This document shows positions 27,135 through 43,516 of a stretch of 64,000 nucleotides of DNA, piece by piece. Numbering within the stretch: the first letter of the stretch is position 1; each line of letters opens with the position of its first letter. The DNA lies in the sequence record PZ445449.1. The stretch is one strand, 5' to 3'. A program made the position numbers and the translations under genes. The notes beneath the pieces were generated by a model, which worked only from the letters and a program-made list of their open reading frames with translations, was not told where the DNA came from and ran no database searches. Source of the DNA: a phage.

Positions 27135-28340
27135 ATGATTTTCATCTACGAACACTTCAAAACTCGTAAAGAAGCACGCGACCGCCGTGCAGAACTTGAG
27201 AAGAAGGGTTTCACATGTGCCATTGAGAAAGGCGACACAACCTGGACACTGGCAGTTGGTGCCCCAGAGTTGTTCGATCCTGACCGTGACAGCGTCTGCT
27301 ACACCCGTGAGGATTTTGAAACCCGTGAAGAGGCCCGTCTATTTCGATATGGGCTGGAAGATAATGGTAAGTACGCCATGATCTTAGACTTAGGCGAAGG
27401 TTCCGTTAAACGTTGGGGCGTGGTATACCCACTGTGTGTTGTTCACGGTGTGGGGTTCACTGGGGTGGCAATCAAGTCAGAAGAACCTTTAGTAGAAGTC
27501 AAAGACCCGGTGCTGGAGGTGGTGAGCAGTGTGTCTCAGCAACAGACTCGAAGCATCGAGCCTTTAGTAGTTATTTGTGGGGAACTCCTCCAGATCACCT
27601 GCAACGAAGGCATTTTTGAAATTCGCCGCAGCGAAAGTGAGGAAGTTTACCAGAAAGTCTTCGACCATATCTCTGTTCAGGAATATGATGAGGCAATTGG
27701 TGAAATCCTTGTCTGGCTGGAACGCAAGAATGAGTTCACCACACTTGCAGACAACCTGATCATGAAAGATGGTAAGCTCTACTACTACGGTGTAGAGATG
27801 CGATCCACCATTGCAAAGAAAATTGAGAAAGACTATGCAGACGGAACACTGGATGACCGCTATGTGAAATTCCTCGTTCGCCTGCTACGCAATCCTTCTG
27901 CAAAATCTGTAAACATGCTCTACGATTTTATGCAGGCCAACGATATCCAGATTGCAGAAGATGGTCGAATCATTTGCTACAAAGGGGTTCAGTTTAACGG
28001 CAGCAAGTGGGTGGATTGGCACAGTGGTAAAGTTCCACAATACCAGGGTGCTTTTGTATCCATGCCTCGTAACTTTGTAGAGGATGATCCTGAAGCTGCG
28101 TGCTCCTATGGCTTACACTGCGCCAGCAAGGAGTATGCAAAGAGCTACGGCACTGTAATGACTGTCATGGTTGACCCTGCAGATGTGGTTAGTGTGCCAT
28201 ACCAACACAATAGCGCTAAGTGCCGTGCATGCCGCTATGAGATTGTGGTAGCTCCGGAAGCACGCAAGGACGGAGACCCGATTGAATACGTGGTTGACCG
28301 AGACGGTAACACTATCGACATTCTTTACGAGGAGGCGTAA
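27135..28340 (+). CDS. hypothetical protein with duplicated N-terminal motif
   Basis: ATG at 27135 with AAGGAG RBS; repeated F-x-TR-x-EAR ... G segments near N-terminus; no recognisable catalytic motif. Confidence 0.55.
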   Translation: MIFIYEHFKTRKEARDRRAELEKKGFTCAIEKGDTTWTLAVGAPELFDPDRDSVCYTREDFETREEARLFRYGLEDNGKYAMILDLGEGSVKRWGVVYPLCVVHGVGFTGVAIKSEEPLVEVKDPVLEVVSSVSQQQTRSIEPLVVICGELLQITCNEGIFEIRRSESEEVYQKVFDHISVQEYDEAIGEILVWLERKNEFTTLADNLIMKDGKLYYYGVEMRSTIAKKIEKDYADGTLDDRYVKFLVRLLRNPSAKSVNMLYDFMQANDIQIAEDGRIICYKGVQFNGSKWVDWHSGKVPQYQGAFVSMPRNFVEDDPEAACSYGLHCASKEYAKSYGTVMTVMVDPADVVSVPYQHNSAKCRACRYEIVVAPEARKDGDPIEYVVDRDGNTIDILYEEA

Positions 28341-29710
28341 TGGAAAAAGGGCAGTATGATGTAGGCACAGATGCTGCCCTTGTTGCAATCATGAGCGGTG
28401 AGAATGTCTTCGTTTCAGGACCTGCAGGTTGTGGGAAGACGTATCTCATCAACATGATCCAGTCAATGTATGGAGACTCTTGCATAACGGTTGCCCCGAC
28501 AGGGGTAGCCGCTTTAAACGTTAATGGAGCAACAGCACACCGAACCTTCGATCTTGCAGCAGGTGTGAGCATGGAGTCAGACTGGACCGCAATAAGGGCA
28601 AAAACAGCAAAGCCTTTGAAAAGCAAGGCATTTACCATCCTAATTATCGATGAAATCTCTATGATCCGTGCTGATAAGTTTATAGAGATGGATAGGAAAC
28701 TCCGCTTCCTTCGAAAAAATGACAAACCTTTCGGAGGCATACAGGTCATATTGTTTGGCGATTTTTACCAGGCACCTCCTGTTGTCTCTTCTATGGAGAA
28801 GGAAGCCTACTTCAACTTCTACCATACGGACCTGTGTTGCTATACCGAATCTTGGAAAGAGCTTGACCTCCACAACATAGCCCTAATAGATCAGTTCCGA
28901 CAGGAGTCTATTCGATTTGCTACAATGCTCAACTGTGTTCGTGAGGGTCGTCGCATAAAAGAGGTTGTAGCAGAACTTAATGCTCGCTGTTACAAAGGAG
29001 GTGTACCAACAGACGCTCTCACAATTTGCGCCACCAACAAACAAGCAGAGGAAGTGAACAGAAGGTTCTATGATGCCATCAACGCCCCAGAGAAGGTATA
29101 CACTGGTGAAATGAAGGGTAAGTTTCCCTCCACCCTACCAGTTGAGCAGGAGATGAAGTTGAAAATTGGCATGAAAGTTATGATAACCGCCAACGATGTT
29201 GACCCGACGCACAAAGTACCTTATTATGTTAACGGAACACGTGCTACAATTGTTAAATTTAAGAACAAGGCGGTGGTGGTAGAGCTTGAAGATGGAACAC
29301 AGGTTGACATAGAGCAGAGGTTGTGGGAGAATAACGAGTATAAGCCATCTCAGAGATACAACATTGCAGAAAGGAAGATGGAGAAGTTTATAGAGAGGGT
29401 AGTGATTGGGTCATACAAGCAACTTCCTCTGAAATCTGGGTACGCCGTAACATCTCATAAAAGTCAAGGACTTACACTAGATTGTTACAACCTAGACCTT
29501 GGAAAGAACGGAGCTTTCTCTCCTGGGATGACGTATGTCGCTTTGAGTAGAGTTAAGACAATACAAGGAATAAACTTGTTGCGTCCACTAAGAGAGGTTG
29601 ACATTATTGTTGACCCGCGAGTCGTAGAGTTTTACAATACAACATTCCCTGACTTAGACAAAATTGTCAGGAAAGATTTTGAAACCAGAGCAGAAGAGGG
29701 GGACGTATGA
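28340..29710 (+). CDS. PIF1/Dda-like SF1B DNA helicase
   Basis: 456 aa; Walker A GPAGCGKT, TVAPTGVAA...TAHRTF, Walker B IIDEISM, C-terminal VTSHKSQGLT...TYVALSR. Confidence 0.8.
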   Translation: MEKGQYDVGTDAALVAIMSGENVFVSGPAGCGKTYLINMIQSMYGDSCITVAPTGVAALNVNGATAHRTFDLAAGVSMESDWTAIRAKTAKPLKSKAFTILIIDEISMIRADKFIEMDRKLRFLRKNDKPFGGIQVILFGDFYQAPPVVSSMEKEAYFNFYHTDLCCYTESWKELDLHNIALIDQFRQESIRFATMLNCVREGRRIKEVVAELNARCYKGGVPTDALTICATNKQAEEVNRRFYDAINAPEKVYTGEMKGKFPSTLPVEQEMKLKIGMKVMITANDVDPTHKVPYYVNGTRATIVKFKNKAVVVELEDGTQVDIEQRLWENNEYKPSQRYNIAERKMEKFIERVVIGSYKQLPLKSGYAVTSHKSQGLTLDCYNLDLGKNGAFSPGMTYVALSRVKTIQGINLLRPLREVDIIVDPRVVEFYNTTFPDLDKIVRKDFETRAEEGDV

Positions 29711-31352: not shown

Positions 31353-32114
31353 TTGAAATTCATCTACAAAGAACACTACCACAAAGGTGTTGTGTGGAGT
31401 CTATTTGACGGGTCTGGTGGTGCAGTTATTGACTGGGCGAAAGCTGGGTACCTGTGCCTGTGCTTTAATGCAGAAGGTGCTGACCACGGCAGTTATGCAG
31501 AGGTGATAACCGATCATCCTAACATTCACTATGTGGATTATTGGATTGACCCATGGTTCCCTCAGGAAACTTTTTGCATGTATCCAGCTCCAGACTTTAT
31601 TCTTGCATTTCCTCCGTGCACGCATTTAGCGGTATCAGGTGCTGCACATTTTAAGAAAAAGCTGGCTAAGGATCCTTTGATCCAAATTAATGCTGTAAAG
31701 GATGCTCGGGTTGCGGAAGAGTTGGGAGAGATTTACGATTGCCCGTGGCATGTAGAGAATCCTGTAGGGGTTATGTCCACACTGTGGCGAAAACCTGATT
31801 ACCGTTTTCATCCTTCGGATTATGGTGGGTATTTACCGGAGGATGATGTAAACCCCTGGTTTCCTGAATTTATAGCTCCACGTGATGCCTATCCAAAAAT
31901 AACTTGCGGCTGGATAGGCAATGGATTTATAATCCCGGCCACAAAACCTGTCCCGCAAATAGTTGACGCGGTTAGCGGGTATTCCATGCAACACGCCAAG
32001 CTGGGTGGAAAGAGTGCAAGAACGAAGATGATTCGAAGCCTCACACCACGTGGCTGGGCAAAAGCCGTATTCTTAGCAAACGAGCCTGCAGTAAGGAGAA
32101 GGTCCAATGGTTGA
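31353..32114 (+). CDS. DNA (cytosine-5)-methyltransferase-like protein
   Basis: Motifs in order LFDGSGG (motif I-like), AFPPCTHLAVSGA (PC catalytic motif IV-like), HVENPVG (ENV motif VI-like); start assigned to TTG 31353 after AGGAGA, uncertain. Confidence 0.45.
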   Translation: MKFIYKEHYHKGVVWSLFDGSGGAVIDWAKAGYLCLCFNAEGADHGSYAEVITDHPNIHYVDYWIDPWFPQETFCMYPAPDFILAFPPCTHLAVSGAAHFKKKLAKDPLIQINAVKDARVAEELGEIYDCPWHVENPVGVMSTLWRKPDYRFHPSDYGGYLPEDDVNPWFPEFIAPRDAYPKITCGWIGNGFIIPATKPVPQIVDAVSGYSMQHAKLGGKSARTKMIRSLTPRGWAKAVFLANEPAVRRRSNG

Positions 32115-32778
32115 CTGGAGCAAGTATTTCACCTATCGCGACGGCAAACTGTTCTGGGCGTATACCGCAAAAGCCGGAAGGGGCAGGATCATACATTACG
32201 CAGGTGAGGAGGCCACAGGCACAGATAAAGATGGCTATAGAGTAATAAATGTGTCAGGTGTTGGGAGTGTTCGTAGGCATAGAATAATTTGGGAGATGCA
32301 TTACGGAGAGATACCTGAAGGTCTTGTTGTGCGGCACAAGAACGACATGGCAGGGGATGATAGGATAGAGAACTTAGTCCTAGGGACACAGGGTGATAAT
32401 GCACGAGACATGATCTACAGTGACAAGCTGAACATTAATAATACCTCAGGGTATCGTGGCGTGCGCTATCATAGAGGTATAAAAAGATGGACTGCATCTG
32501 CTGGAGACATATACTTAGGGTGTTTTAAGACAAAAGAGGATGCAATTGCATGCAGAAAGTTATGGGAGAAGGGAAAATTCGTCCCGCAAGAATTAGATGT
32601 TAGAAACACTAGCGGTGTGACAGGGGTGTTCTATGTGCCGAGCTCTGGAAGGTGGAGAGTCCGAGTGCAAAGCGGCAAAAAGAGAAAGAGCTATGGCACT
32701 TACAACACTTTAGAAGAAGCAAAAGCTGTAAGGGATAAAGTGATGAAAGATATTGAGGAGTTTAAAGATGGGGAATAA
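32107..32778 (+). CDS. HNH homing endonuclease with AP2-type DNA-binding repeats
   Basis: 223 aa; HNH_3-type segment HRIIWEMHYGEIPEGLVVRHKNDMAGDDRIENL; two SGYRGV / SGVTGV ... W AP2-like repeats. Confidence 0.7.
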   Translation: MVDWSKYFTYRDGKLFWAYTAKAGRGRIIHYAGEEATGTDKDGYRVINVSGVGSVRRHRIIWEMHYGEIPEGLVVRHKNDMAGDDRIENLVLGTQGDNARDMIYSDKLNINNTSGYRGVRYHRGIKRWTASAGDIYLGCFKTKEDAIACRKLWEKGKFVPQELDVRNTSGVTGVFYVPSSGRWRVRVQSGKKRKSYGTYNTLEEAKAVRDKVMKDIEEFKDGE

Positions 32779-34846
32779 GTTTATACCCTCTGCATATAAC
32801 CGCTATGGAGAACCTAACCCAGTTGCAACAAGATACAAAAGCGGAGGTAGTATGAAACGAGACTATCGAGATGAAAAAGAGGTTGAAACCGTAGAGACCG
32901 TTTTAGAAAATACTAAAATTGTCCCTGTCCCACAACAAAATATCGGTCTAATGGCTGCACAATATTTTGGTGTGCGATCAGCATTGTCCCAAGAAGATGG
33001 TGTGACAGTGACTGCAACATATTTCCCATATTACGACCGCTACGGAAATCTGTCCGGTTTCAAAAAGCGTGATTGGTCTAAGCCAAAAGAGCAGAAAGGG
33101 CACTGGTCTGTGGTAGGCATAGTAAAGGCTAACTCCCAGATGTTTGGTCAAAAGCTGTGTGCATCTTCCAACAACCGTAAGCAGATTAACGTTTGTGAGG
33201 GAGAAGGTGATGTTATTGCAGCATGGCAGGCTGCATATCAGATACAAGTAAAAGGGATTCTCACCAACGCTAAAGCCCCGGCAAAGGTGAAGCAGTGGGC
33301 TAAAGAGGTCCAGGACGGAATCGATGCAGTTATCAACGGTGGTGATCTGGCAGGAAAACCCTGCCTGCCTTTTGTTGGAATTAACTGTGGATGTGCAAAC
33401 GCAGTAGATACTTTTGCAAACAATGAGAAGTTTATCCGTAGCTATGGAACAGTTGTGCTGGCAATGGATAACGATGCAGCTAACGAGGTAGAGAAGCAAA
33501 AACACGTCATTAAAGGTGTTGAGGCCACGCACAATATCGCAGCATTTTTGATGGCTGATAACGTTTACCACGTAGAATACCCTGGTGAAGTAAATGACCC
33601 TGACGGTGTAAAAGATATCCGAGACATGCTGAAGGCTAAAAAGCTGGAAGATATTGTCAACATGTTCCGGCACCCTGTTAAATATGTGCCTGATGCTGTG
33701 TCGGATTTAGAAGACTTCTCTATCGAGTCTTTGCGGAAAAAGACTTCCAACGGGGTAGATATCAGTGCAGAGTTCCCAAAACTGCAAAAAATGCTAAAAG
33801 GCTTGCACAAAGGGACACTTGTAATGCTTACAGGTCCATCAGGCGGCGGTAAAACAACCGTGGCTAAAAAACTGGAACACTGTATTGCAAGATACCTAAT
33901 GGACCCGACATGCCCGAAGGCCGATGACTATGAAGAGGATGATCGTCTATGCATGATCCATCTTGAGGAGGATCCAGAGGAAGCAATTAACTCCTTGTAT
34001 GCAAACCAGTTAGGGTTTGATGTTAAAGAGTTTGTTGAAGATCCTAGCCAGTTTTTAACTGATCAAGAACACGCAGAGATTCACCAATCATGGGCAAAAG
34101 CTGGAAAAATCAAAGTGTTCAAACATTTCGGGTCTATTCCGGTGGACGAGTTGATTACCAAGCTTAAGCAAATGGTTTGCCTGTACCATTGTCGTTATAT
34201 TGTGCTGGATCACCTGTCCATGGTAATTTCAGGGCTTAATGTTAAGGATGAGCGAAAAGAACTGGACATGGCTATGACCCAACTGGCTGCGTTTTGTAAG
34301 CAGTTTAACGTGTTTATCTTGGTGATCGCTCACCTCAAACGTACAGAGATTGTGCCCCCTAAGGACAAGGATGGTAACCCATTACCTTTCTGGTATCCTG
34401 TGCGAAAAGAGAATTTGCGAGGATCGGCTGGGCTTGAACAGTTGAGTTGGGTAGTCATAGGTGTCGAGGCCGAAGAAATGGTGGATCGTTCTCGTGGACG
34501 TGTCCGTCTGGTAGGTCTTAAAAACCGTCCAGCAAAAACTTTAGGTATTGCTGACACTTTAGTTATGGATCCGCATACAGGTAAGTTCCACGATGCCAGT
34601 AATTGGTACTGGGACAAAGAAATGCAGATGTTCACAGACGGAGAAGGTGGGGAGGTTGTTTGGAGACCTCAGGCTATGTTTGAGGATCAGGAGCATGCAG
34701 TTGTAGAAACACCTATGGGCAAGGTTGTGGCTGATAAGGTTGTAACACCCACTGTCAAGCCTATTGACACGCAGGAAGACCTCCAATACGATGATCCATC
34801 CTCTGATCCGGTCCCTGGTTTTGAGGATGATGAAACACCTTTTTAA
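32768..34846 (+). CDS. bifunctional DNA primase-helicase (T7 gp4-like)
   Basis: TOPRIM-like VCEGEGDVIAAW in N-terminal half; DnaB-family Walker A LTGPSGGGKTT and H4-like region in C-terminal half; ATG 32768 with AGGAG RBS. Confidence 0.75.
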   Translation: MGNKFIPSAYNRYGEPNPVATRYKSGGSMKRDYRDEKEVETVETVLENTKIVPVPQQNIGLMAAQYFGVRSALSQEDGVTVTATYFPYYDRYGNLSGFKKRDWSKPKEQKGHWSVVGIVKANSQMFGQKLCASSNNRKQINVCEGEGDVIAAWQAAYQIQVKGILTNAKAPAKVKQWAKEVQDGIDAVINGGDLAGKPCLPFVGINCGCANAVDTFANNEKFIRSYGTVVLAMDNDAANEVEKQKHVIKGVEATHNIAAFLMADNVYHVEYPGEVNDPDGVKDIRDMLKAKKLEDIVNMFRHPVKYVPDAVSDLEDFSIESLRKKTSNGVDISAEFPKLQKMLKGLHKGTLVMLTGPSGGGKTTVAKKLEHCIARYLMDPTCPKADDYEEDDRLCMIHLEEDPEEAINSLYANQLGFDVKEFVEDPSQFLTDQEHAEIHQSWAKAGKIKVFKHFGSIPVDELITKLKQMVCLYHCRYIVLDHLSMVISGLNVKDERKELDMAMTQLAAFCKQFNVFILVIAHLKRTEIVPPKDKDGNPLPFWYPVRKENLRGSAGLEQLSWVVIGVEAEEMVDRSRGRVRLVGLKNRPAKTLGIADTLVMDPHTGKFHDASNWYWDKEMQMFTDGEGGEVVWRPQAMFEDQEHAVVETPMGKVVADKVVTPTVKPIDTQEDLQYDDPSSDPVPGFEDDETPF

Positions 34847-34904: not shown

Positions 34905-37328
34905 ATGAGCATGTGGTCGTTCGATTTTGAGTCATCCGGTTTGCTGGAAGACCCAGATCTTTATTATCACTGCGGTCTGTTTAAAGAGCTGAATAAGAAC
35001 CGTTTTATGCTGTTCCTTCCTCTAAATGACCGCACACACTACTCCGAGGAGGATATAGAAAAGGCTAAGAACTTCATTCTGGCAAAGAAAACTCTTTATA
35101 AAGATTTTGAAGTTCGCATAGCAGATTTTTCGGAGTTGGAAGGTTGGCTTACAGGCAATTCTGACTGGTCACCAACAGCTTTGAACTGCCATAACTGCTA
35201 CAGTTATGACTTTATGCTGATGGAAAGATTATCCGGTATTCATTTTGATATGTTCCGTGATCCTAAATGCATGGGAACTATCAACGACCACCAGGTTAAC
35301 CTGTTTGATACGTTGGCGATGAGCCGAATCTTGTGGCCTGATCGCCCTTTACCAAAAGGTTGTCCGGACTCTGTATTCAACCCGGTTACTAAGAAAATGC
35401 AGCCTGTTGGTCCTCACGGCCTTATGGCATGGGGCTACGCCCTTGGTAACCAGAAAGTTCAAATTGATGACTGGCGCGATCTTCCGTTGTGGAAGTATGT
35501 GGATCGTGTATTCGAGGACGTTATCATCCAGGAGCTGCTCTGGAAAGAGCTGGTAGCGGAATCAAAAGGTGTATTCTACGGCAAATCTGACATGCAGAAC
35601 TTTATGTACGATCCAGCCAAAGAGAAGCCGAAAGGGTTCAAGAAAATCACCTGGAAGAACGCATTACGCCGAGGCATGCTGCAGCACTTCCTGATGGAGC
35701 TGCAGGCCCGTCAGGGTGTGTATTTCGACATAGATGGGGCTATTGCTTTACGTGACCGTTGCGATGCGTGGATGAAAGAGATCGCTGATCGTGTTGAACC
35801 TCAACTTCCTTTAAAAGAGTTGTCAATGTCTCAGCGGCCAAAGTTCCCTGAAAAGCCGTTTAACCAAGATGGGACAATCTCCAATAATGGTTGGAAATGG
35901 TTAAAAGATAAGCTTGGCTATCCTGTAGACATGAGCGCTTTAGAATTCAAAGCCCCGCCTAAGCGAGCATTTACCTCCACAGGAGATGTCAGCAAGATGG
36001 GGATAAAATGGTGTGAAGAGATGGGCTGCAAAGACCCAGACAAGATGGCTGATTTCTTGAGAGGTTATATTAAGGGCACCTCCACACCACAACCTTTACC
36101 TAAAGAGCTGATGGATCAGGCAATAAGTGATCTGCAGCAGAAGCGAATGCCTGACTGCAAGATACCTATGAAAATCAGCAATCAGGACGACATTAAGCGA
36201 TACCTGATCAGTGCTGGTTGGCTTCCGACAATGTGGAGAACTAAGGATGTAACTAAGGACAGCAAGAAGAAAGCTCTACCTGATGCAGATGTTGATGCAC
36301 GAGTATATGCATACATGGACGAGCTTTTAGAGTCAGAGTATTGTGACCTAATTATCAACTTCTGGAACAAAACTGATGCTAAGTTTCAGACAACAGTGCA
36401 CAAGTTCCGAAGCTTTCCTAACTCCGAAAGGATTAAAAAGGAAGTGTTCGGGAAAATACGCAGAAAAGCCAGGGCACTTATTACTTCTCCGCAACTGAAA
36501 GATACGTTTGGACACCTATGTCCGAATCTTGAAAAATTGAACGGAGAGATGGCTAAAGATATCGTCTTGTGGTTATCATTGCGAAACCGCAGATCGGTCC
36601 TTGATCCAATCAAGGAGGATAAGGTTGATACTGGTCTTCTTAATCACCCACGTTTGAAGATTGACCATAAGCTTCCTGCTAAAAGCTCTGGATTAACAAA
36701 CACTTCCCGACAGAAACACAGTATTTGTGCAAACATGCCTAAACCATCTCCTAAAGTGGTTATGGGTAAAGAGATGCGTAGCTTGTGGGGTGTTCCTCCT
36801 GGATACTTTGAGATCGGTATTGACGGGTCCAACTTAGAGCAGCTTATCGGGGCTTGGGGTGCCTTTGAGTTCGACAACGGCTTGTACTATGATGTTGTAA
36901 GTAACGGGGACGCACACCAAAACAATGCTGAGGCATATACAAAAGTAGCAGGCAGAGAGGTGTCTCGTAACGACGGTAAACCTATCACGTATGGGGTTAT
37001 GTACGGGGCACAAAAAGATAAAGTTGCAGATATGCTGGATATCTCCCCAGAGTTGGGGCAAAGGGTGATCGATGCACTTTGGGATGCCAACCCCGGTCTT
37101 AAGGGGCGCAAAGAGGATCTGGAGAAATTCTGGGAAGCAACAGGTAAGAAGTTTATCTACTCTTTTGATGGTCATGCTATCTGGACCCGATCTAAACACT
37201 CTTTACTTAATGCATACCAACAAAATGGTGGTGCATCGCTGTGTGACTTAGTTGGGATACTCATGCACCACCAAATGGTGAAGCGTGGGTGGTACGATGA
37301 AGGTGTCCGTCGTATTATCTATTACCAT
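34905..37328 (+). CDS. DNA polymerase family A, exon 1 (exonuclease and polymerase motifs A and B)
   Basis: Exo I FDFESSG; motif A IDGSNLEQL; motif B KPITYGVMYGAQ; ORF ends ...RIIYYH then K-stop exactly where motif C (HDE) is expected. Confidence 0.75.
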
Positions 37329-38170
37329 AAATAACATTGTGGCTTCGTGCAGTGATGCACGTCGAAAACCTCTTTAATTGACGGGAAGGCTAAGTTGACT
37401 TTTACACCTAAACATGGTAAAAGCTCAATATGCTAATCCGCAGCGAAGACTAAAGGGGTGTAGTTAAAATGGCTAGATCAGCTGATTATCACGGATATAC
37501 CGTGTTTGATGATGGAACAATACCTTTATCGAAACGTGATCATACAACAATGTTTTGTTTTGATAATGGTCGAGGTTACCTTTGCGTAACCATGCTCATT
37601 GAGGGGAAGCAGTGCACAAAAGGTGTCCACCACTTGGTTGCTGAATGCTTTGTATCAAACCCTGATCCTGAAAAGCTCACATGGGTGAACCATAAGGACG
37701 GAAACAAGTACAACAATGCATACTGGAACCTTGAATGGACCACCCCTGGTGGAAATATCAAACACGCCTATGATAATGACCTCAGAGTAAGGCCAGTTGG
37801 TGAGTATAATGCCAACGCTGTGCTGACCGAGGATGAGGTAATGGAGATTTGTGAACTGTTGCAGAGTGGTCTACGACAATGGGAGATTAGGGATCTTGGG
37901 TATCCTTATGAGACGGTCAGAGCCATAAAGCAAAGAAGACAGTGGAAACATATCTCTAAAAACTACACCTGGTAGTAACGTTCAGAGACTATCGAAAGCA
38001 TAGCTCCAACATAGTTTGGTGTGAAGAAGCGAGTAGAGTAGGCCAGCAAGTGCGGTCGAAATGAGAGGTGCCTTGGTAACAAGGTAGTGAGATAGTCCGA
38101 TCCATACAGGAAACCGTATGGCTGTGCACGTAATGGTGCGGGGTAGCTTAACGACCTACCTGAACTATTG
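37329..38170 (+). mobile_element. candidate group I intron carrying an HNH homing endonuclease gene, inserted in the DNA polymerase gene
   Basis: 842-nt insertion between ...YYH (last exon-1 nt is T) and DEYQLQV...; last inserted nt is G; contains free-standing HNH ORF 37469-37975. Confidence 0.55.
37469..37975 (+). CDS. HNH homing endonuclease (insertion-encoded)
   Basis: 168 aa; HNH_3 motif VNHKDGNKYNNAYWNLEWTT; AAAGGGG RBS. Confidence 0.7.
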   Translation: MARSADYHGYTVFDDGTIPLSKRDHTTMFCFDNGRGYLCVTMLIEGKQCTKGVHHLVAECFVSNPDPEKLTWVNHKDGNKYNNAYWNLEWTTPGGNIKHAYDNDLRVRPVGEYNANAVLTEDEVMEICELLQSGLRQWEIRDLGYPYETVRAIKQRRQWKHISKNYTW

Positions 38171-38524
38171 GATGAGTACCAACTTCAAGTCCCTGACACG
38201 CCTAAGTATAAGACTGTGTACACCTTCGACACAATCGAAGAACTGGAAGCATTTAAGGCAGAGCAGGAGGCCAAACTTCATGTGTTCGACGGTCATAAGT
38301 ACAAAAAGGCACGCAAGGATGAGGACGGAAACGAAGTGGTTGACAGAGACGGAAACACGGTGTACGATCCTATCCTGAACGATGACGGAAAGCTTGAACT
38401 TATCTGGAGCCCTGTGGGTGAAATGGTGGTGCATTGCTTCTGGCAAGCTTCTAAAATGATGGGCGTCCCGTTCCAGATCACAGGTGAATACCTGTGTGGT
38501 CGTAATTGGGGTGATTGTCACTAA
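38171..38524 (+). CDS. DNA polymerase family A, exon 2 (motif C to C-terminus)
   Basis: Frame opens just upstream and reads DEYQLQV...; C-terminus ...GRNWGDCH resembles T7 DNA polymerase terminus ...GPNWAICH as recalled from memory. Confidence 0.6.
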   Translation, partial: DEYQLQVPDTPKYKTVYTFDTIEELEAFKAEQEAKLHVFDGHKYKKARKDEDGNEVVDRDGNTVYDPILNDDGKLELIWSPVGEMVVHCFWQASKMMGVPFQITGEYLCGRNWGDCH

Positions 38525-40310: not shown

Positions 40311-40699
40311 TGAAAAATATTTGGGATATCGATATCTTTGAAGCCTCTAAGCTTGACGGTGCTGATGGAGTGATTATGGTGTCTGATGGCAAGGCAACAC
40401 TAACTTCCGGAGATATCATCTATGCCTTGGACGAGCTGGCGCTTCTGAAATCTACCGGTAACACTTTGGAGGAGCGTCTTCAAGGATTCGCTTTCAAAGA
40501 AGGTACAAATACAGCCATGATGTGCACCACACGGACAGTTCAGGTTGGTAACGGTGTCTATATGATTATTGCTGTGTGTCCTAAATTCAGCAACGTCAGC
40601 AAAGATGATGCTGACGCGGTCAACGATGTGGTTGTTCTCTTCGTGGGTGACGCTATGGCAGATCTGATGAATGCAGGAGAAGCAGCAAATGAAGACTGA
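40307..40699 (+). CDS. hypothetical protein
   Basis: 130-aa ORF overlapping upstream stop. Confidence 0.5.
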   Translation: MMKNIWDIDIFEASKLDGADGVIMVSDGKATLTSGDIIYALDELALLKSTGNTLEERLQGFAFKEGTNTAMMCTTRTVQVGNGVYMIIAVCPKFSNVSKDDADAVNDVVVLFVGDAMADLMNAGEAANED

Positions 40700-40991
40700 A
40701 AACATCACCCCAGCAGGGTTCTTAAAAGTATACCGTGAACTGCTATATACTACAGAGGACAGTGTTCTAGAGTATCCAGAATATCTTTTGCTGTATAAGT
40801 ATCTGCAGGAGGCTGGTGAAAATCTGCCAGTTAGTGCAGAAGGTGGTCCAAACTGGATATACAGCGCATGGAGAAAGGTTGACATTCTCCCCGACCCAGG
40901 TAAAGATATGGTAGTTTGGCAGCTTATTAACAACATCGGGATTTCAATCTTTGATGAAGCTGTTAAAATATATTTTGAACTTGACGATTAA
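40689..40991 (+). CDS. hypothetical protein
   Basis: ATG 40689 after AGGAGAAG. Confidence 0.45.
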   Translation: MKTENITPAGFLKVYRELLYTTEDSVLEYPEYLLLYKYLQEAGENLPVSAEGGPNWIYSAWRKVDILPDPGKDMVVWQLINNIGISIFDEAVKIYFELDD

Positions 40992-41337: not shown

Positions 41338-41703
41338 ATGGAACAAATGAACGATCAAGCGTCGGTTGCGATGAACGAGCAAGAACAACCTCAAGAATTT
41401 TTCTTAGGGTTAAGTAAAGATCAAGTGTCTCTTCTGCTAGTGCTTTCTTCTTTCATGGGAAGACTTCAGGAGCTCACACAACAGCCAGAGGCTGAACAAT
41501 TATTTCAGGCTCTGCGTGAAGAAGAAAAATATCGTCGTTTGGACTATGCCTTAGGTTGGGTAGCTCAACAACGAGATATGCTGATGGCCCTCTCTGGGAC
41601 CACAAGTTTTGCAATGGGCCTGTTGGCTCAAGTTCAGGACAAATTAATTCAAGCAGGGTTTGCACACACGGCAAACACTAACGAAGAACAAGGAGACAAA
41701 TAA
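41338..41703 (+). CDS. hypothetical protein
   Basis: 121 aa; GGAGA RBS. Confidence 0.5.
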   Translation: MEQMNDQASVAMNEQEQPQEFFLGLSKDQVSLLLVLSSFMGRLQELTQQPEAEQLFQALREEEKYRRLDYALGWVAQQRDMLMALSGTTSFAMGLLAQVQDKLIQAGFAHTANTNEEQGDK

Positions 41704-42929
41704 TGAGCGTTATTCAACAATTCGCTAACCCGATGAATCCGCGTGAAACTGTTTTACTAGCTCACGGCATGATTAAACGTGTCAGCATCAAGCCTATCAA
41801 AGGTGCTGATCCTACAACAGGTATTAAAACCACTGTGTGGCAAGGTAAGAAAATTGAATCCAGCCACACCATCTCTTTACTGATTTCTGAACTGGATTCC
41901 TCTGATAACCTACTTCAAGGTGGTGAAGAAGTTTGGATCAGCATGGGCGATAAGCTGCTTAAACCGGGTCATCAAGACTCCGTCTCTGTTAAAATTGATG
42001 ACAAGTGGGAAACCGTAACGCCAGGATGGATCGTAAATATCCCTCTGAAGGCAAACGAGCATAACGGTAAGACCTATTACAAAGGCTCACTGGCTAAGAT
42101 GGTCAAACTGGGTGCAGGAGAGGCTCCAGCAGCGACTCAGCAGCAAAAACAGCAACAAGGTGCACAATCACAAGGTCAGAAGCAGAAACCCCAGCAGAAT
42201 GCCAATCAGGACGTTTTACGCATCTATGGCGATGTGACTCAGATTGTTGGCAACGTGGTTACTGTTAATGACCACAAGATTGGCGAAGGTGCTATGGTTG
42301 TCACTGATGAGCAGCTTAAAGACCTGGTGGTAGGTGGTCGTGTTGCAGCCATTGTTGACAAAGACACCGGAAACATTATCAGTGGTTTCAAAGCCTATCC
42401 ACCTAAGGCAGAGAACGGCACTCAAGGCTCTGGTGGCAAGCGTAAATCCTCTTACGACCCTATTGGTGTAGAGACGGGGCATAGCATCAATGCTTTGCAG
42501 ATCATCCTGGATCGCGGGTTTAAGGTGGATGACCCACTAAGCGTGGCTAAAACACTGCACGTAGTCACCATTGAGCTTAAGAAAGAGTATGCTCAAGCCA
42601 CCAACCGAACTGAAGATGAAGTAGGTGCCAGTGTCGGTAATGCGGTGTTGAACGCTTGTCGCCGTATTGACAAGAAAACGAAAGTTGATGATTTTGCAGC
42701 GGCAATTACTGCAGAAGCAAAAGATGTCTTGACTAATCTTGCTGAACCGTTGTATGATTGGATCAAGAACGGTGCGGGAGCCACTGACCATCAAGAACCT
42801 CAAGCTGCCAAACAGGAAGCTGCTCCGCAGCAAAACACTGTAGACGCTCCTCCTGTAAATGACGAGGAAGATGACCCGATGGATCAGAATCCAGCACAGT
42901 ATGAGTTCGATGACTCGATCCCTTTCTGA
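41703..42929 (+). CDS. single-stranded-DNA-binding-like protein with SSB-type acidic C-terminal tail
   Basis: 408 aa; C-terminus ...EEDDPMDQNPAQYEFDDSIPF resembles the E. coli SSB tip (DFDDDIPF); Q-rich linker QQQKQQQGAQSQGQKQKPQQ; lies next to replication genes. Confidence 0.5.
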   Translation: MSVIQQFANPMNPRETVLLAHGMIKRVSIKPIKGADPTTGIKTTVWQGKKIESSHTISLLISELDSSDNLLQGGEEVWISMGDKLLKPGHQDSVSVKIDDKWETVTPGWIVNIPLKANEHNGKTYYKGSLAKMVKLGAGEAPAATQQQKQQQGAQSQGQKQKPQQNANQDVLRIYGDVTQIVGNVVTVNDHKIGEGAMVVTDEQLKDLVVGGRVAAIVDKDTGNIISGFKAYPPKAENGTQGSGGKRKSSYDPIGVETGHSINALQIILDRGFKVDDPLSVAKTLHVVTIELKKEYAQATNRTEDEVGASVGNAVLNACRRIDKKTKVDDFAAAITAEAKDVLTNLAEPLYDWIKNGAGATDHQEPQAAKQEAAPQQNTVDAPPVNDEEDDPMDQNPAQYEFDDSIPF

Positions 42930-42937
42930 GGTCAGTT

Positions 42938-43516
42938 ATGAAATGCAAACGTTGTGGAGAGGACAAGGAGGCCTCCGACTTCTACACCAGTAACAAATCA
43001 ACGTGCAAAGAGTGTTGCAAGAAGGCCAGCAGGGAGGCTGACCAATTTGCTAAAGACTCTTCAGAAAAAGGTGTAATACGCGTGCTGTACAAGGCTCAAA
43101 AGTGCAACAGCAAGCAAAGAGGTCACCCGCCTCCGACTTACACCAAAAAAGAGTTTAAGGAGTGGCTATACCTAAACGGTTACAAAGAGTTGTATGATCA
43201 ATGGGTAGCCAGCGGATACGACAAAAGGAAAAAGCCTTCTTGTGACAGGATAGATGATTTCAAAGGGTACTCTTTTGATAATATCCGTTTAACGACTTGG
43301 GGAGAAAATAAAGACAAGCAGACAGAGGATATTCTGTTGCATAGAAGCACCAGCGGTAGACGGTGCAAAAATGTAAGGAGGTTGGACATGAATGGTAACG
43401 TTCTTAAAGAATGGGTATCTCACAACTCTTGTAGCAGAGAAACCGGAATATATATTGGTTACTACATTCATGAAAAAATTCCAGCTCCAGATGGATACTT
43501 ATACGAATACTTTTAA
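42938..43516 (+). CDS. zinc-finger protein with degenerate HNH-like segment
   Basis: 192 aa; N-terminal CKRC...CKECC; segment CDRIDDFKGYSFDNIRLTTWGENK resembles HNH-type core. Confidence 0.35.
   Translation: MKCKRCGEDKEASDFYTSNKSTCKECCKKASREADQFAKDSSEKGVIRVLYKAQKCNSKQRGHPPPTYTKKEFKEWLYLNGYKELYDQWVASGYDKRKKPSCDRIDDFKGYSFDNIRLTTWGENKDKQTEDILLHRSTSGRRCKNVRRLDMNGNVLKEWVSHNSCSRETGIYIGYYIHEKIPAPDGYLYEYF

What the first reader, a model, noticed from the sequence alone, without database searches (positions are those of the whole stretch)
41703..42929. Long SSB-like protein ending in an E. coli SSB-type acidic tip
The last residues ...EFDDSIPF closely resemble the host SSB C-terminal tip (DFDDDIPF) that recruits many genome-maintenance proteins, and the gene sits among replication genes. 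At 408 aa with a Q-rich linker the protein is much longer than canonical SSBs, so it may be an ssDNA-binding protein with extra domains or a protein that uses the tip to compete for host SSB-interacting partners.
Basis: partly seen in the sequence, partly recalled or inferred. Interest (0 to 1): 0.5.

Follow-up and report, generated by a model that had tools for sequence, protein, structure and literature searches.

The report
Essential phage SSB with host-type tail

Summary
The ORF at 41703-42929 (+) encodes 408 aa ending YEFDDSIPF.

The window is a Vequintavirus (rV5-like coliphage). The protein is 403/408 identical to Bas52_0087. A 2026 preprint already predicts that protein to be SSB-like with an E. 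coli SSB C-tip, and shows genetically that it triggers the DRT10 defence system.

What my tests add:
- **Tip conservation:** The family has 247 clusters and is absent from Pfam. In a 128-member alignment, 125 end in Phe; the consensus is DFDDDIPF.
- **Context:** The gene follows a T7-type primase/helicase and a family-A polymerase, also in distant relatives.
- **No alternative:** A complete relative genome has no other SSB.
- **Essentiality:** The Bas54 ortholog is essential in a published transposon screen.

Most likely this is the phage's replicative SSB. Nobody has yet shown that it binds ssDNA or that its tail binds partners.

Novelty is low, because the idea is already in the literature. 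One unexplained side finding is a conserved 15-aa extension after the IPF tip in sister alleles and in canonical mobile-element SSBs.

The parts
41703..42929 (+). Whole gene: 408-aa SSB-like protein (PHROG 4477). Ortholog of Bas52_0087, bas51_0089 and bas54_0087.
   Evidence: ORF confirmed. PHROG 4477, annotated 'unknown function', E 8e-173. 403/408 identical to Bas52_0087.
41691..41705 (+). Ribosome-binding site AGGAG (41691-41695) and ATG start codon. The start overlaps the upstream ORF's TAA stop by one base (TAATG), which suggests translational coupling.
   Evidence: Read directly from the sequence (printout).
41703..42119 (+). Residues 1-139: N-terminal OB-fold domain. It is basic (pI 9.1), and the family conserves aromatic and basic positions H55, W78, K97, W102, K123 and Y126.
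42120..42209 (+). Residues 140-169: disordered Q-rich linker (13 Q in 30 residues). Its length varies among close relatives.
   Evidence: pLDDT below 50. Composition. P0005 lacks 13 residues here.
42210..42413 (+). Residues 170-237: small beta-barrel, probably a second IF1/S1-size OB-like domain. It is optional in the family: about 100 of 187 members lack it.
   Evidence: pLDDT about 85. Foldseek matches to IF1 over 65-71 columns with probability 1.0 but E > 0.05. Presence/absence counted. The preprint also reports two OB folds.
42450..42776 (+). Residues 250-358: four-helix domain, the most conserved part of the family. It carries G255xxxG259-H260, G308xxxG312 and D252. Both DRT10-escape substitutions of the ortholog (D252V, Y351C) fall in it.
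42777..42899 (+). Residues 359-399: disordered acidic P/Q/E-rich linker. Residues 359-408, i.e. this linker plus the tip, carry net charge -12.
   Evidence: pLDDT below 50. Charge. The sequence is hypervariable across homologs.
42900..42926 (+). Residues 400-408, YEFDDSIPF: an SSB-Ct-type acidic tip with a C-terminal Phe.
   Evidence: Sequence. Aligns to the E. coli SSB tip. F408 in 125/128 and P407 in 123/128 members.
41338..41703 (+). Upstream 121-aa acidic ORF (PHROG 7310, unknown function) that overlaps the SSB-like gene's start. Possibly a partner. Also labelled 'putative SSB' in GenBank record JLBYU08.
   Evidence: The Bas54 ortholog is scored 'Intermediate' for essentiality. No detectable homology to the upstream ORFs of distant loci.
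32753..34846 (+). DnaB-type primase/helicase of the same replication module. It also ends in an acidic Phe-terminated tip, ...PGFEDDETPF.
   Evidence: Pfam DnaB_C and AAA_25. Tail sequence.
34905..37334 (+). Family-A DNA polymerase, first part. The gene is interrupted by an 842-nt insertion at 37329-38170 and continues from 38171.
   Evidence: Pfam DNA_pol_A at E 1.5e-6, which is below Pfam's curated cutoff. Annotated as DNA polymerase in PMBT16 and Bas52. Insertion mapped by BLASTN against PMBT16.

Best explanation
This is the essential replicative single-stranded-DNA-binding protein of a Vequintavirus (rV5-like) phage. It belongs to a sequence-orphan SSB family.

**Proposed mechanism**
1. 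The basic N-terminal OB fold binds ssDNA exposed by the phage's T7-type primase/helicase and family-A polymerase, stacking bases on conserved aromatic residues. In the long form of the protein, the second small barrel helps.
2. The conserved four-helix domain mediates self-association or partner docking.
3. The disordered acidic tail presents a copy of the host SSB C-terminal tip (...FDD[D/S]IPF). This tip recruits host SSB-interacting proteins to phage ssDNA, for example ExoI, RNase HI, chi or PriA. It may also contact the phage's own replisome.
4. By coating ssDNA and competing for ExoI, the protein also becomes the feature of infection that the DRT10 defence system senses.

**Shown here or in the cited papers:** the sequence, the conservation of the tip, the gene context, the essentiality of the Bas54 ortholog, and the genetics linking the Bas52 ortholog to DRT10.

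**Predicted:** the OB fold and the domain architecture.

**Inferred:** ssDNA binding, oligomerisation, and the identity of the tail's partners.
For: - **Conserved contact-type residues.** Across 128 members, H55 is 93% aromatic/His, W78 73% aromatic, W102 93% aromatic and Y126 71% aromatic. K97 is 77% basic and K123 71% basic. The N-domain has pI 9.1 and the tail has net charge -12.
- **Tip.** The family consensus is DFDDDIPF; F408 is present in 125/128 members and P407 in 123/128. The family profile's only PDB sequence match is the E. coli SSB tail.
- **Synteny.** The order primase/helicase, family-A polymerase, small ORFs, this gene holds in the window and in distant contigs L003 and L004.
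- **No other SSB.** The rV5 genome paper names none. The curated Bas52 annotation has none. A tblastn/phmmer scan of the whole Bas52 genome with canonical SSBs hits only this gene's tail.
- **Essentiality.** In the HIDEN-SEQ screen, bas54_0087 has insertions at 8 of 57 TA sites and is called 'Essential'. Its downstream genes are non-essential, which rules out polar effects. T4 gp32 and the Bas37 SSB show near-zero insertion read counts in the conditional-fitness tables of the same study.
- **Independent prediction and genetics.** The ortholog Bas52_0087 is 403/408 identical. It was independently predicted to be SSB-like with a C-tip. Escapers from DRT10 were missense only (D252V, Y351C). ExoI dosage modulates the defence.
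Against: - There is no biochemical evidence for ssDNA binding or for tail-partner binding. The preprint contains no EMSA or binding data.
- No sequence-level link exists to any SSB family: Pfam, NCBIfam and PDB profile searches were all negative.
- The window's tip has Ser where E. coli SSB has the Asp next to Ile.
- Sister alleles, including the essential Bas54 copy, carry 15 extra residues after the tip Phe. That would block the free carboxylate which, to my knowledge, canonical SSB-Ct docking requires. Host-partner recruitment through the tip may therefore not be the essential activity.
Confidence: 0.7

Rival explanations
1. Decoy or competitor. The protein's main job is not replication. 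Instead it titrates host SSB-interacting proteins such as ExoI, RecQ, PriA and RecO away from host SSB, disabling host repair or defence.
For: The tip is essentially identical to the host's and stays so across phages whose helicase tails differ. The DRT10 genetics link the ortholog to ExoI/SbcB, and the preprint's authors suggest competition with SbcB.
Against: - The ortholog is essential in E. coli K-12 under laboratory conditions, which is unusual for an accessory anti-host factor.
- Expression of the ortholog alone did not affect host viability, so it does not strongly titrate essential host SSB interactions.
- It has a conserved OB fold with conserved aromatic and basic residues and sits in a replication module.
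- The genome has no alternative SSB.
Confidence: 0.1
2. T7 gp2.5-style SSB. The protein is the phage SSB, but its acidic Phe-terminated tail is aimed mainly at the phage's own polymerase and primase/helicase, as in T7, rather than at host proteins.
For: - The replisome is T7-type: a gp4-like primase/helicase plus a family-A polymerase.
- In this phage the primase/helicase also ends in an acidic ...FEDDETPF tip. From my own knowledge, not a tool result: T7 gp4 also has an acidic Phe-terminated tail, so the phage's helicase/SSB tail pair mirrors T7 gp4 and gp2.5.
- The T7 gp2.5 tail binds T7 polymerase and helicase, and loss of its terminal Phe abolishes the polymerase interaction (passage quoted).
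- The weak Foldseek list includes the gp2.5-like DUF2815 structure 4klk.
Against: - The tip stays DDDIPF in distant relatives whose helicase tails are unrelated (...PNKDF...PEGSY) and whose polymerases have diverged. A phage-internal contact would be expected to co-vary with these.
- The tip matches the host SSB motif, not the T7 one.
- The two roles are not mutually exclusive.
Confidence: 0.2
3. RecO-like recombination mediator or helicase loader. An OB domain followed by a helical domain could act as an annealing or loading factor rather than as a stoichiometric ssDNA coat.
Against: - RecO binds the SSB tip rather than carrying one.
- The helical domain searched alone did not retrieve RecO or any loader.
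- The N-domain contains no cysteine, so it has no zinc motif.
Confidence: 0.05

Closest known systems
Bas52_0087 (QXV84166.1) of Escherichia phage RudolfGeigy; bioRxiv 10.64898/2026.04.29.721553
   Same: It is the same gene: 403/408 identical, with the same numbering (D252, Y351) and the same position after the overlapping 366-nt ORF. The preprint predicts an SSB-like fold by Phold and AF2, with two OB folds, a disordered C-terminus and an FDDDIPF C-tip. It shows genetically that the protein is needed to trigger DRT10.
   Different: The window's copy ends FDDSIPF rather than FDDDIPF and has a homing endonuclease gene downstream that Bas52 lacks. The passages I read place the escape sites at a 'putative oligomerization interface' and do not mention a helical domain. 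In my model those sites lie in a separate, highly conserved four-helix domain.
E. coli-type bacterial SSB (Pfam PF00436)
   Different: There is no detectable sequence homology in the core. It has two additional folded domains between the OB fold and the tail. It is 408 aa against 178 aa. Its oligomeric state is unknown.
Phage T7 gp2.5 (DUF2815-type phage SSB)
   Same: Both are phage-encoded OB-fold SSBs with an acidic C-terminal tail ending in Phe, working with a gp4-type primase/helicase and a family-A polymerase.
   Different: There is no sequence match, and only a weak Foldseek hit to a DUF2815 structure (E 0.044). The tip copies the host SSB motif rather than the T7 motif. The extra barrel and helical domain are not found in gp2.5.
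Two-OB-fold SSBs of Deinococcus and Thermus
   Same: Both have two OB-like barrels in one polypeptide followed by an acidic tail. 1se8 and 2cwa appear in the fold-search lists.
   Different: Here the second barrel is small (about 65 aa) and optional in the family. A four-helix domain follows it. There is no sequence relationship.
Phage HK620 SSB (PMC5928155)
   Same: It is a distant phage SSB whose last six residues (NDYPPF, similar to DDDIPF) are needed to recruit a partner, Sak4. This is a precedent for phage SSB tails acting as recruitment handles.
   Different: HK620 SSB is small (21 kDa), is described as a distant homolog of SSB, and has a degenerate tip. The protein here has an exact host-type tip and extra domains.

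Membership tests
Bacterial SSB family (Pfam PF00436) | Sequence match to the SSB OB-domain profile | tested here: not met
   No Pfam hit at E <= 1 for the query. None of 128 family members hits it. NCBIfam gives nothing. The family profile matches only the tail of E. coli SSB in PDB sequences, at E 0.054.
Bacterial SSB family (Pfam PF00436) | OB-fold ssDNA-binding core | tested here: met
Bacterial SSB family (Pfam PF00436) | Disordered linker followed by an acidic C-terminal tip ending in ...D-D-D-I-P-F | tested here: met
   Residues 359-408 are disordered with net charge -12. The tip is FDDSIPF in the window and DFDDDIPF in the family consensus.
Bacterial SSB family (Pfam PF00436) | High-affinity, sequence-independent ssDNA binding, and homotetramer (or dimer of double-OB) assembly | not testable with these tools
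   No multimer prediction or biochemistry was available. The preprint reports none.
SSB-Ct interaction hub (tip docks on ExoI, chi, PriA, RecQ, RecO and others) | Terminal Phe with a free alpha-carboxylate, preceded by Pro, Ile and acidic residues | tested here: met
   The window's ORF stops immediately after IPF. Sister alleles in rV5, Bas49 and Bas54 add 15 residues after the Phe, so the feature is not met in those alleles.
SSB-Ct interaction hub (tip docks on ExoI, chi, PriA, RecQ, RecO and others) | Physical binding of the tip to host SSB-interacting proteins | not testable with these tools
   The only evidence is indirect genetics: ExoI dosage modulates DRT10 triggering by the ortholog.
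T7 gp2.5-like phage SSB (DUF2815) | Sequence or fold match to gp2.5/DUF2815 | tested here: inconclusive
   No Pfam hit. Foldseek hit to DUF2815 structure 4klk at E 0.044, TM about 0.29.
T7 gp2.5-like phage SSB (DUF2815) | Encoded alongside a gp4-type primase/helicase and a family-A polymerase; acidic tail with C-terminal Phe | tested here: met
   The helicase also ends ...FEDDETPF.
T4 gp32-like SSB | Zinc-binding (Cys/His) subdomain within the OB core; profile match | tested here: not met
   Residues 1-139 contain no cysteine. No Pfam match.
RecO | OB domain plus a RecO-type helical domain (with or without a zinc finger); binds rather than carries SSB-Ct | tested here: not met
PHROG 4477 / Bas52_0087 family (Vequintavirinae SSB-like, DRT10 trigger) | Full-length profile match and orthology | tested here: met
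   PHROG 4477 at E 8e-173 over the full length. 99% identity to Bas52_0087. Identical gene order.

The most novel reading that the evidence does not exclude
Two features the literature does not address could be new biology.

1. **The four-helix domain.** It has no structural relatives, it is the most conserved part of the family, and it holds both DRT10-escape sites. It may be a new oligomerisation or docking module that determines how immune systems recognise this SSB class.
2. **The post-tip extension.** A conserved segment of about 15 aa follows the IPF tip (AP[IV]GLQYxxxx[IV][YH]AL, or APVTLPFPRHAIHAI). It occurs in sister alleles (rV5, Bas49, Bas54) and on canonical SSBs from unrelated phages and enterobacterial assemblies. 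It may be a cap that masks or re-targets the SSB tip, which would be an unrecognised layer of control over the SSB interaction hub.
Probability: 0.2. Interest if true: 0.6.

Novelty: already known. Interest (0 to 1): 0.35.

Why it matters
It fills a long-standing gap. rV5-like phages, which are common therapeutic candidates, had no assigned SSB. The family spans at least 247 protein clusters, yet PHROGs lists it as 'unknown function' and Pfam lacks it.

The protein also sits at a meeting point of current interest. Phage SSBs trigger several defence systems, including Retron-Eco8, DARNA and DRT10. This one carries the exact handle that the host SSB uses to recruit its partner proteins.

The core idea has already been published for a 99%-identical ortholog, so the finding confirms and extends rather than discovers. 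The extensions that could matter are listed below.
- The link to essentiality data, which the two preprints have apparently not connected.
- The recognition of the four-helix domain as the site of the escape mutations.
- The post-tip extension.

Tried and rejected
- **Sequence searches for a known family.** Pfam (query and all 128 members), NCBIfam, and PDB sequences searched with single sequence and profile all found nothing except the E. coli SSB tail.
- **Foldseek on the three-domain model.** There were no hits at E <= 1e-3, probably because the relative domain orientations in the model are arbitrary. Only a weak OB-themed list came back.
- **Hypothesis: the post-tip extension is an artefact of a homing-endonuclease allele.** Within Vequintavirus the two do travel together. 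I rejected the idea because canonical SSBs and P0048 carry the extension with no endonuclease gene downstream.
- **Hypothesis: the helicase's acidic PF tip co-varies with the SSB tip across the family.** It does not. The helicase tip is confined to Vequintavirus.
- **Hypothesis: the upstream 121-aa ORF is a conserved partner.** It shows no detectable homology to the upstream ORFs in L003 and L004.
- **Large-database search with a tail-only query.** It returned only short fragments, so it could not measure how widespread the extension is.
- **Rfam scan of the window.** It gave 0 hits, so the polymerase-gene insertion is not a recognisable intron.
- **Literature.** The retron Eco2 and DARNA papers contain nothing specific to this protein.

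Full report
**1. The observation**

The ORF at 41703..42929 (+) is real. It has an ATG start and encodes 408 aa that end ...DDPMDQNPAQYEFDDSIPF, followed by TGA. An AGGAG motif lies 7 nt upstream. The ATG overlaps the TAA stop of the preceding 121-aa ORF by one base.

Residues 140-169 contain 13 glutamines in 30 residues.

Given the window's amino-acid usage, a tip of this type is expected about 5e-5 times among the window's 100 ORFs. Conservation, described in section 4, is the stronger argument.

**2. Where the window comes from**

The gene is 95-97% identical at the DNA level to more than 110 rV5-like phages of the genus Vequintavirus. In almost all of them it is annotated 'hypothetical protein'. 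One record, JLBYU08, calls it 'putative single-stranded DNA-binding protein'.

PHROGs places it in family 4477, 'unknown function'. Pfam, NCBIfam and PDB sequence searches find nothing.

**3. Structure**

An AlphaFold2 model built on 26 homologs has three confident domains separated by disordered linkers:
- an all-beta N-terminal domain, residues 1-139;
- a small beta domain, residues 170-237;
- a four-helix domain, residues 250-358;
- a disordered tail, residues 359-408.

*Whole model.* Foldseek gives nothing significant for the whole model. Its weak list is again OB-themed: tandem-OB proteins, phage SSBs 4klk and 2wkc, and IF1-size barrels that fit the middle domain.

*Charge.* The N-domain is basic, with pI 9.1. 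The tail has net charge -12.

**4. The family**

A profile search of 1.84 billion representative proteins finds 247 clusters.
- The commonest form is about 270-300 aa: N-domain, helical domain and tail.
- The form of about 400 aa has the middle barrel inserted; about 100 of 187 members lack it.
- None of 128 diverse members hits any Pfam SSB or OB family.

Conserved features across those 128 members:
- Aromatic or basic positions in the OB domain: H55 (93% aromatic/His), W78, K97, W102 (93% aromatic), K123 and Y126.
- Two GxxxG motifs and D252 in the helical domain.
- The tip above all: F408 in 125/128 (the other three are W) and P407 in 123/128, with consensus DFDDDIPF.

The family profile's only PDB sequence match is the E. 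coli SSB tail, aligning eppfDfDddiPf to EPPMDFDDDIPF.

**5. Genomic context**

In the window the gene lies downstream, on the same strand, of:
- a PIF1-type helicase (28340-29710);
- a DnaB-type primase/helicase (32753-34846);
- a family-A polymerase (34905-37334).

The same order (primase/helicase, then polymerase, then small ORFs, then this gene) appears in two very distant metagenomic contigs.

The rV5 genome paper lists this T7-like replication set and never mentions an SSB (PMC3606486). The curated annotation of the complete Bas52 genome has none. A local tblastn/phmmer scan of that genome with three canonical SSBs hits only the tail of this gene.

**6. What the literature already says**

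A bioRxiv preprint of 30 April 2026 (10.64898/2026.04.29.721553) studies Bas52_0087. It reports the following:
- Two Bas52 escapers from the DRT10 reverse-transcriptase defence carry D252V or Y351C in this gene.
- The protein alone neither triggers DRT10 nor harms the host.
- Supplying the wild-type protein in trans enhances restriction.
- ExoI (SbcB) dosage counteracts the defence.
- There is no DNA-binding biochemistry.

I located Bas52, which is phage RudolfGeigy (MZ501102). The window's protein is 403/408 identical to Bas52_0087 with no gaps.

**7. Essentiality**

A second preprint, HIDEN-SEQ (10.1101/2025.11.20.689424), mapped transposon insertions in Bas54, another Vequintavirus. Its gene bas54_0087 is 1272 nt. 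It is preceded by an overlapping 366-nt gene and followed by a homing endonuclease gene. The lengths of the next seven genes match those downstream of Bas52_0087 exactly.

bas54_0087 has insertions at only 8 of 57 TA sites and is classed 'Essential'. The flanking small genes and the endonuclease gene are non-essential, which excludes polar effects. T4 gp32 and the Bas37 SSB show near-zero insertion read counts in the conditional-fitness tables of the same study, and no Bas54 gene is annotated as an SSB.

The DRT10 escapers were missense only, which also fits an essential gene.

**8. Interpretation**

The best-supported reading is that this is the phage's essential replicative SSB.
- The OB fold, helped by the second barrel in the long form, coats ssDNA.
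- The helical domain probably mediates assembly or partner docking. Both escape sites lie in it. D252 is at the N-cap of helix 1 and Y351 is near the C-terminal end of helix 4. In an up-down four-helix bundle these two points sit at the same end; this is inferred from topology, not measured.
- The acidic tail presents a host-type SSB tip.

The tip stays DDDIPF in lineages whose helicase tails differ (...FEDDETPF...PNKDF...PEGSY). This argues that conserved host partners constrain it. In Vequintavirus, however, the helicase also carries an acidic PF tip. That arrangement recalls T7 gp4 and gp2.5, so a phage-internal role is not excluded.

A pure decoy role is unlikely, given the essentiality and the lack of toxicity.

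**9. Caveats**

The extended sister alleles raise doubt about whether a free terminal Phe is needed (section 10).

**10. Side findings**

*Post-tip extension.* In rV5, Bas49, Bas54, P0001 (a cluster of 533 sequences) and more distant members, the ORF does not stop after IPF. It continues for about 15 residues: AP[IV]GLQYxxxx[IV][YH]AL.
- The same extension follows the tip of canonical E. coli-type SSBs of phage BUCT618 and Vibrio phage phiV039C. It also appears on SSB fragments in E. coli and Salmonella assemblies.
- A second flavour, APVTLPFPRHAIHAI, occurs on fragments from E. coli and Klebsiella assemblies and on one unnamed JGI metagenome fragment.
- The extension does not depend on a downstream endonuclease gene.
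- I found no literature on it.

*Homing endonuclease polymorphism.* The endonuclease gene directly downstream (42938-43516) is present or absent among close relatives, and it comes in two alleles.

*Interrupted polymerase gene.* The DNA polymerase gene carries a precise 842-nt insertion containing an HNH ORF. Rfam does not recognise it as an intron.

**11. Verdict**

Novelty is low, because the idea is in a 2026 preprint and in one GenBank annotation. Interest is moderate.

The remaining open questions are biochemical: ssDNA binding, oligomeric state and tail partners. The roles of the helical domain and of the post-tip extension are also unknown.

Noticed in passing
Not in the window's copy, which stops at 42927-42929. 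Seen in L008:166-1437 (Bas49), rV5 DQ832317, P0001, P0006, P0017, P0044, P0048, P0051, P0059, P0092; L012:1366-1890; L013:577-1125; P0204-P0209 and P0212.: Many sister alleles and distant family members do not stop after ...DDDIPF. They read on for about 15 residues: AP[IV]GLQYxxxx[IV][YH]AL. The same extension follows the tip of canonical E. coli-type SSBs of phage BUCT618 and Vibrio phage phiV039C, and of SSB fragments in E. coli and Salmonella assemblies. A second flavour, APVTLPFPRHAIHAI, occurs on fragments from E. coli and Klebsiella assemblies and on an unnamed JGI metagenome fragment. The extension would bury the terminal Phe carboxylate that, to my knowledge, SSB-tip docking uses. It does not depend on a downstream endonuclease gene. 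No literature was found on it.
   Followed up: partly
window 32753-34846 (+), last 9 codons: The DnaB-type primase/helicase also ends in an acidic Phe-terminated tip, ...PGFEDDETPF. This resembles both the SSB-like tip and the T7 gp4/gp2.5 arrangement. The tip is conserved in Vequintavirus (JLBYU08, Bas52) but not in the distant loci L003 (...PNKDF) and L004 (...PEGSY).
   Followed up: yes
window 37329-38170 (HNH ORF at 37469-37975): Relative to PMBT16, the DNA polymerase gene is interrupted by a precise 842-nt insertion at ...IIYYH|DEYQL..., and the insertion carries an HNH endonuclease ORF. The coding sequence resumes at 38171. Bas52 annotates its polymerase as joined from two pieces. Rfam finds no group I or II intron here or anywhere else in the window.
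   Followed up: partly
window 42938-43516 (+); also 32107-32778 and 37469-37975: Three HNH-type homing endonuclease genes lie within 11 kb of the replication module. The one just after the SSB-like gene (PHROG 1035, 'endonuclease VII') is absent from Bas52, Bas48, Bas55 and JLBYU08. It is present in the window, Bas51 and PMBT16. In Bas49, Bas54 and rV5 it is replaced by a different allele that overlaps the extended SSB 3' end.
   Followed up: yes
window 41338-41703 (+): An acidic 121-aa ORF (pI 4.4; PHROG 7310, unknown function) overlaps the start of the SSB-like gene (TAATG). JLBYU08 also labels it 'putative SSB'. Its Bas54 ortholog is scored 'Intermediate' for essentiality. It is strongly depleted in one conditional-fitness comparison of the screen (log2FC -3.81, p 0.02, not significant after correction); I did not identify which condition. 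It shows no detectable homology to the upstream ORFs of distant family loci.
   Followed up: partly
L003:7837-8001: In a distant 45-kb contig, the short ORF overlapping the start of the family member hits Pfam Phage_T7_Gp5_9. To my knowledge, T7 gp5.9 is a RecBCD inhibitor. That would place an anti-nuclease gene immediately upstream of this SSB type in a T7-like module.
   Followed up: no
GenBank records MG065644-MG065689, found: About 16-20 records named 'Campylobacter phage', with host given as C. jejuni, are 96-99% identical to E. coli rV5-like or phi92-like phages in this gene. The host labels are probably wrong, or the records come from contaminating coliphages.
   Followed up: no
window 42120-42209 (residues 140-169), compared with P0005: The Q-rich linker varies in length among near-identical relatives. 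P0005 is 395 aa and lacks 13 residues of it, as expected for an unconstrained disordered spacer.
   Followed up: no
window 40671-40991 (+) and L014:5114-5389: A DUF7238 gene sits two genes upstream of the SSB-like gene in the window. It sits in the same relative position in a relative whose SSB-like protein is only 38% identical (the P0048 context), so this small-gene block is syntenic.
   Followed up: no
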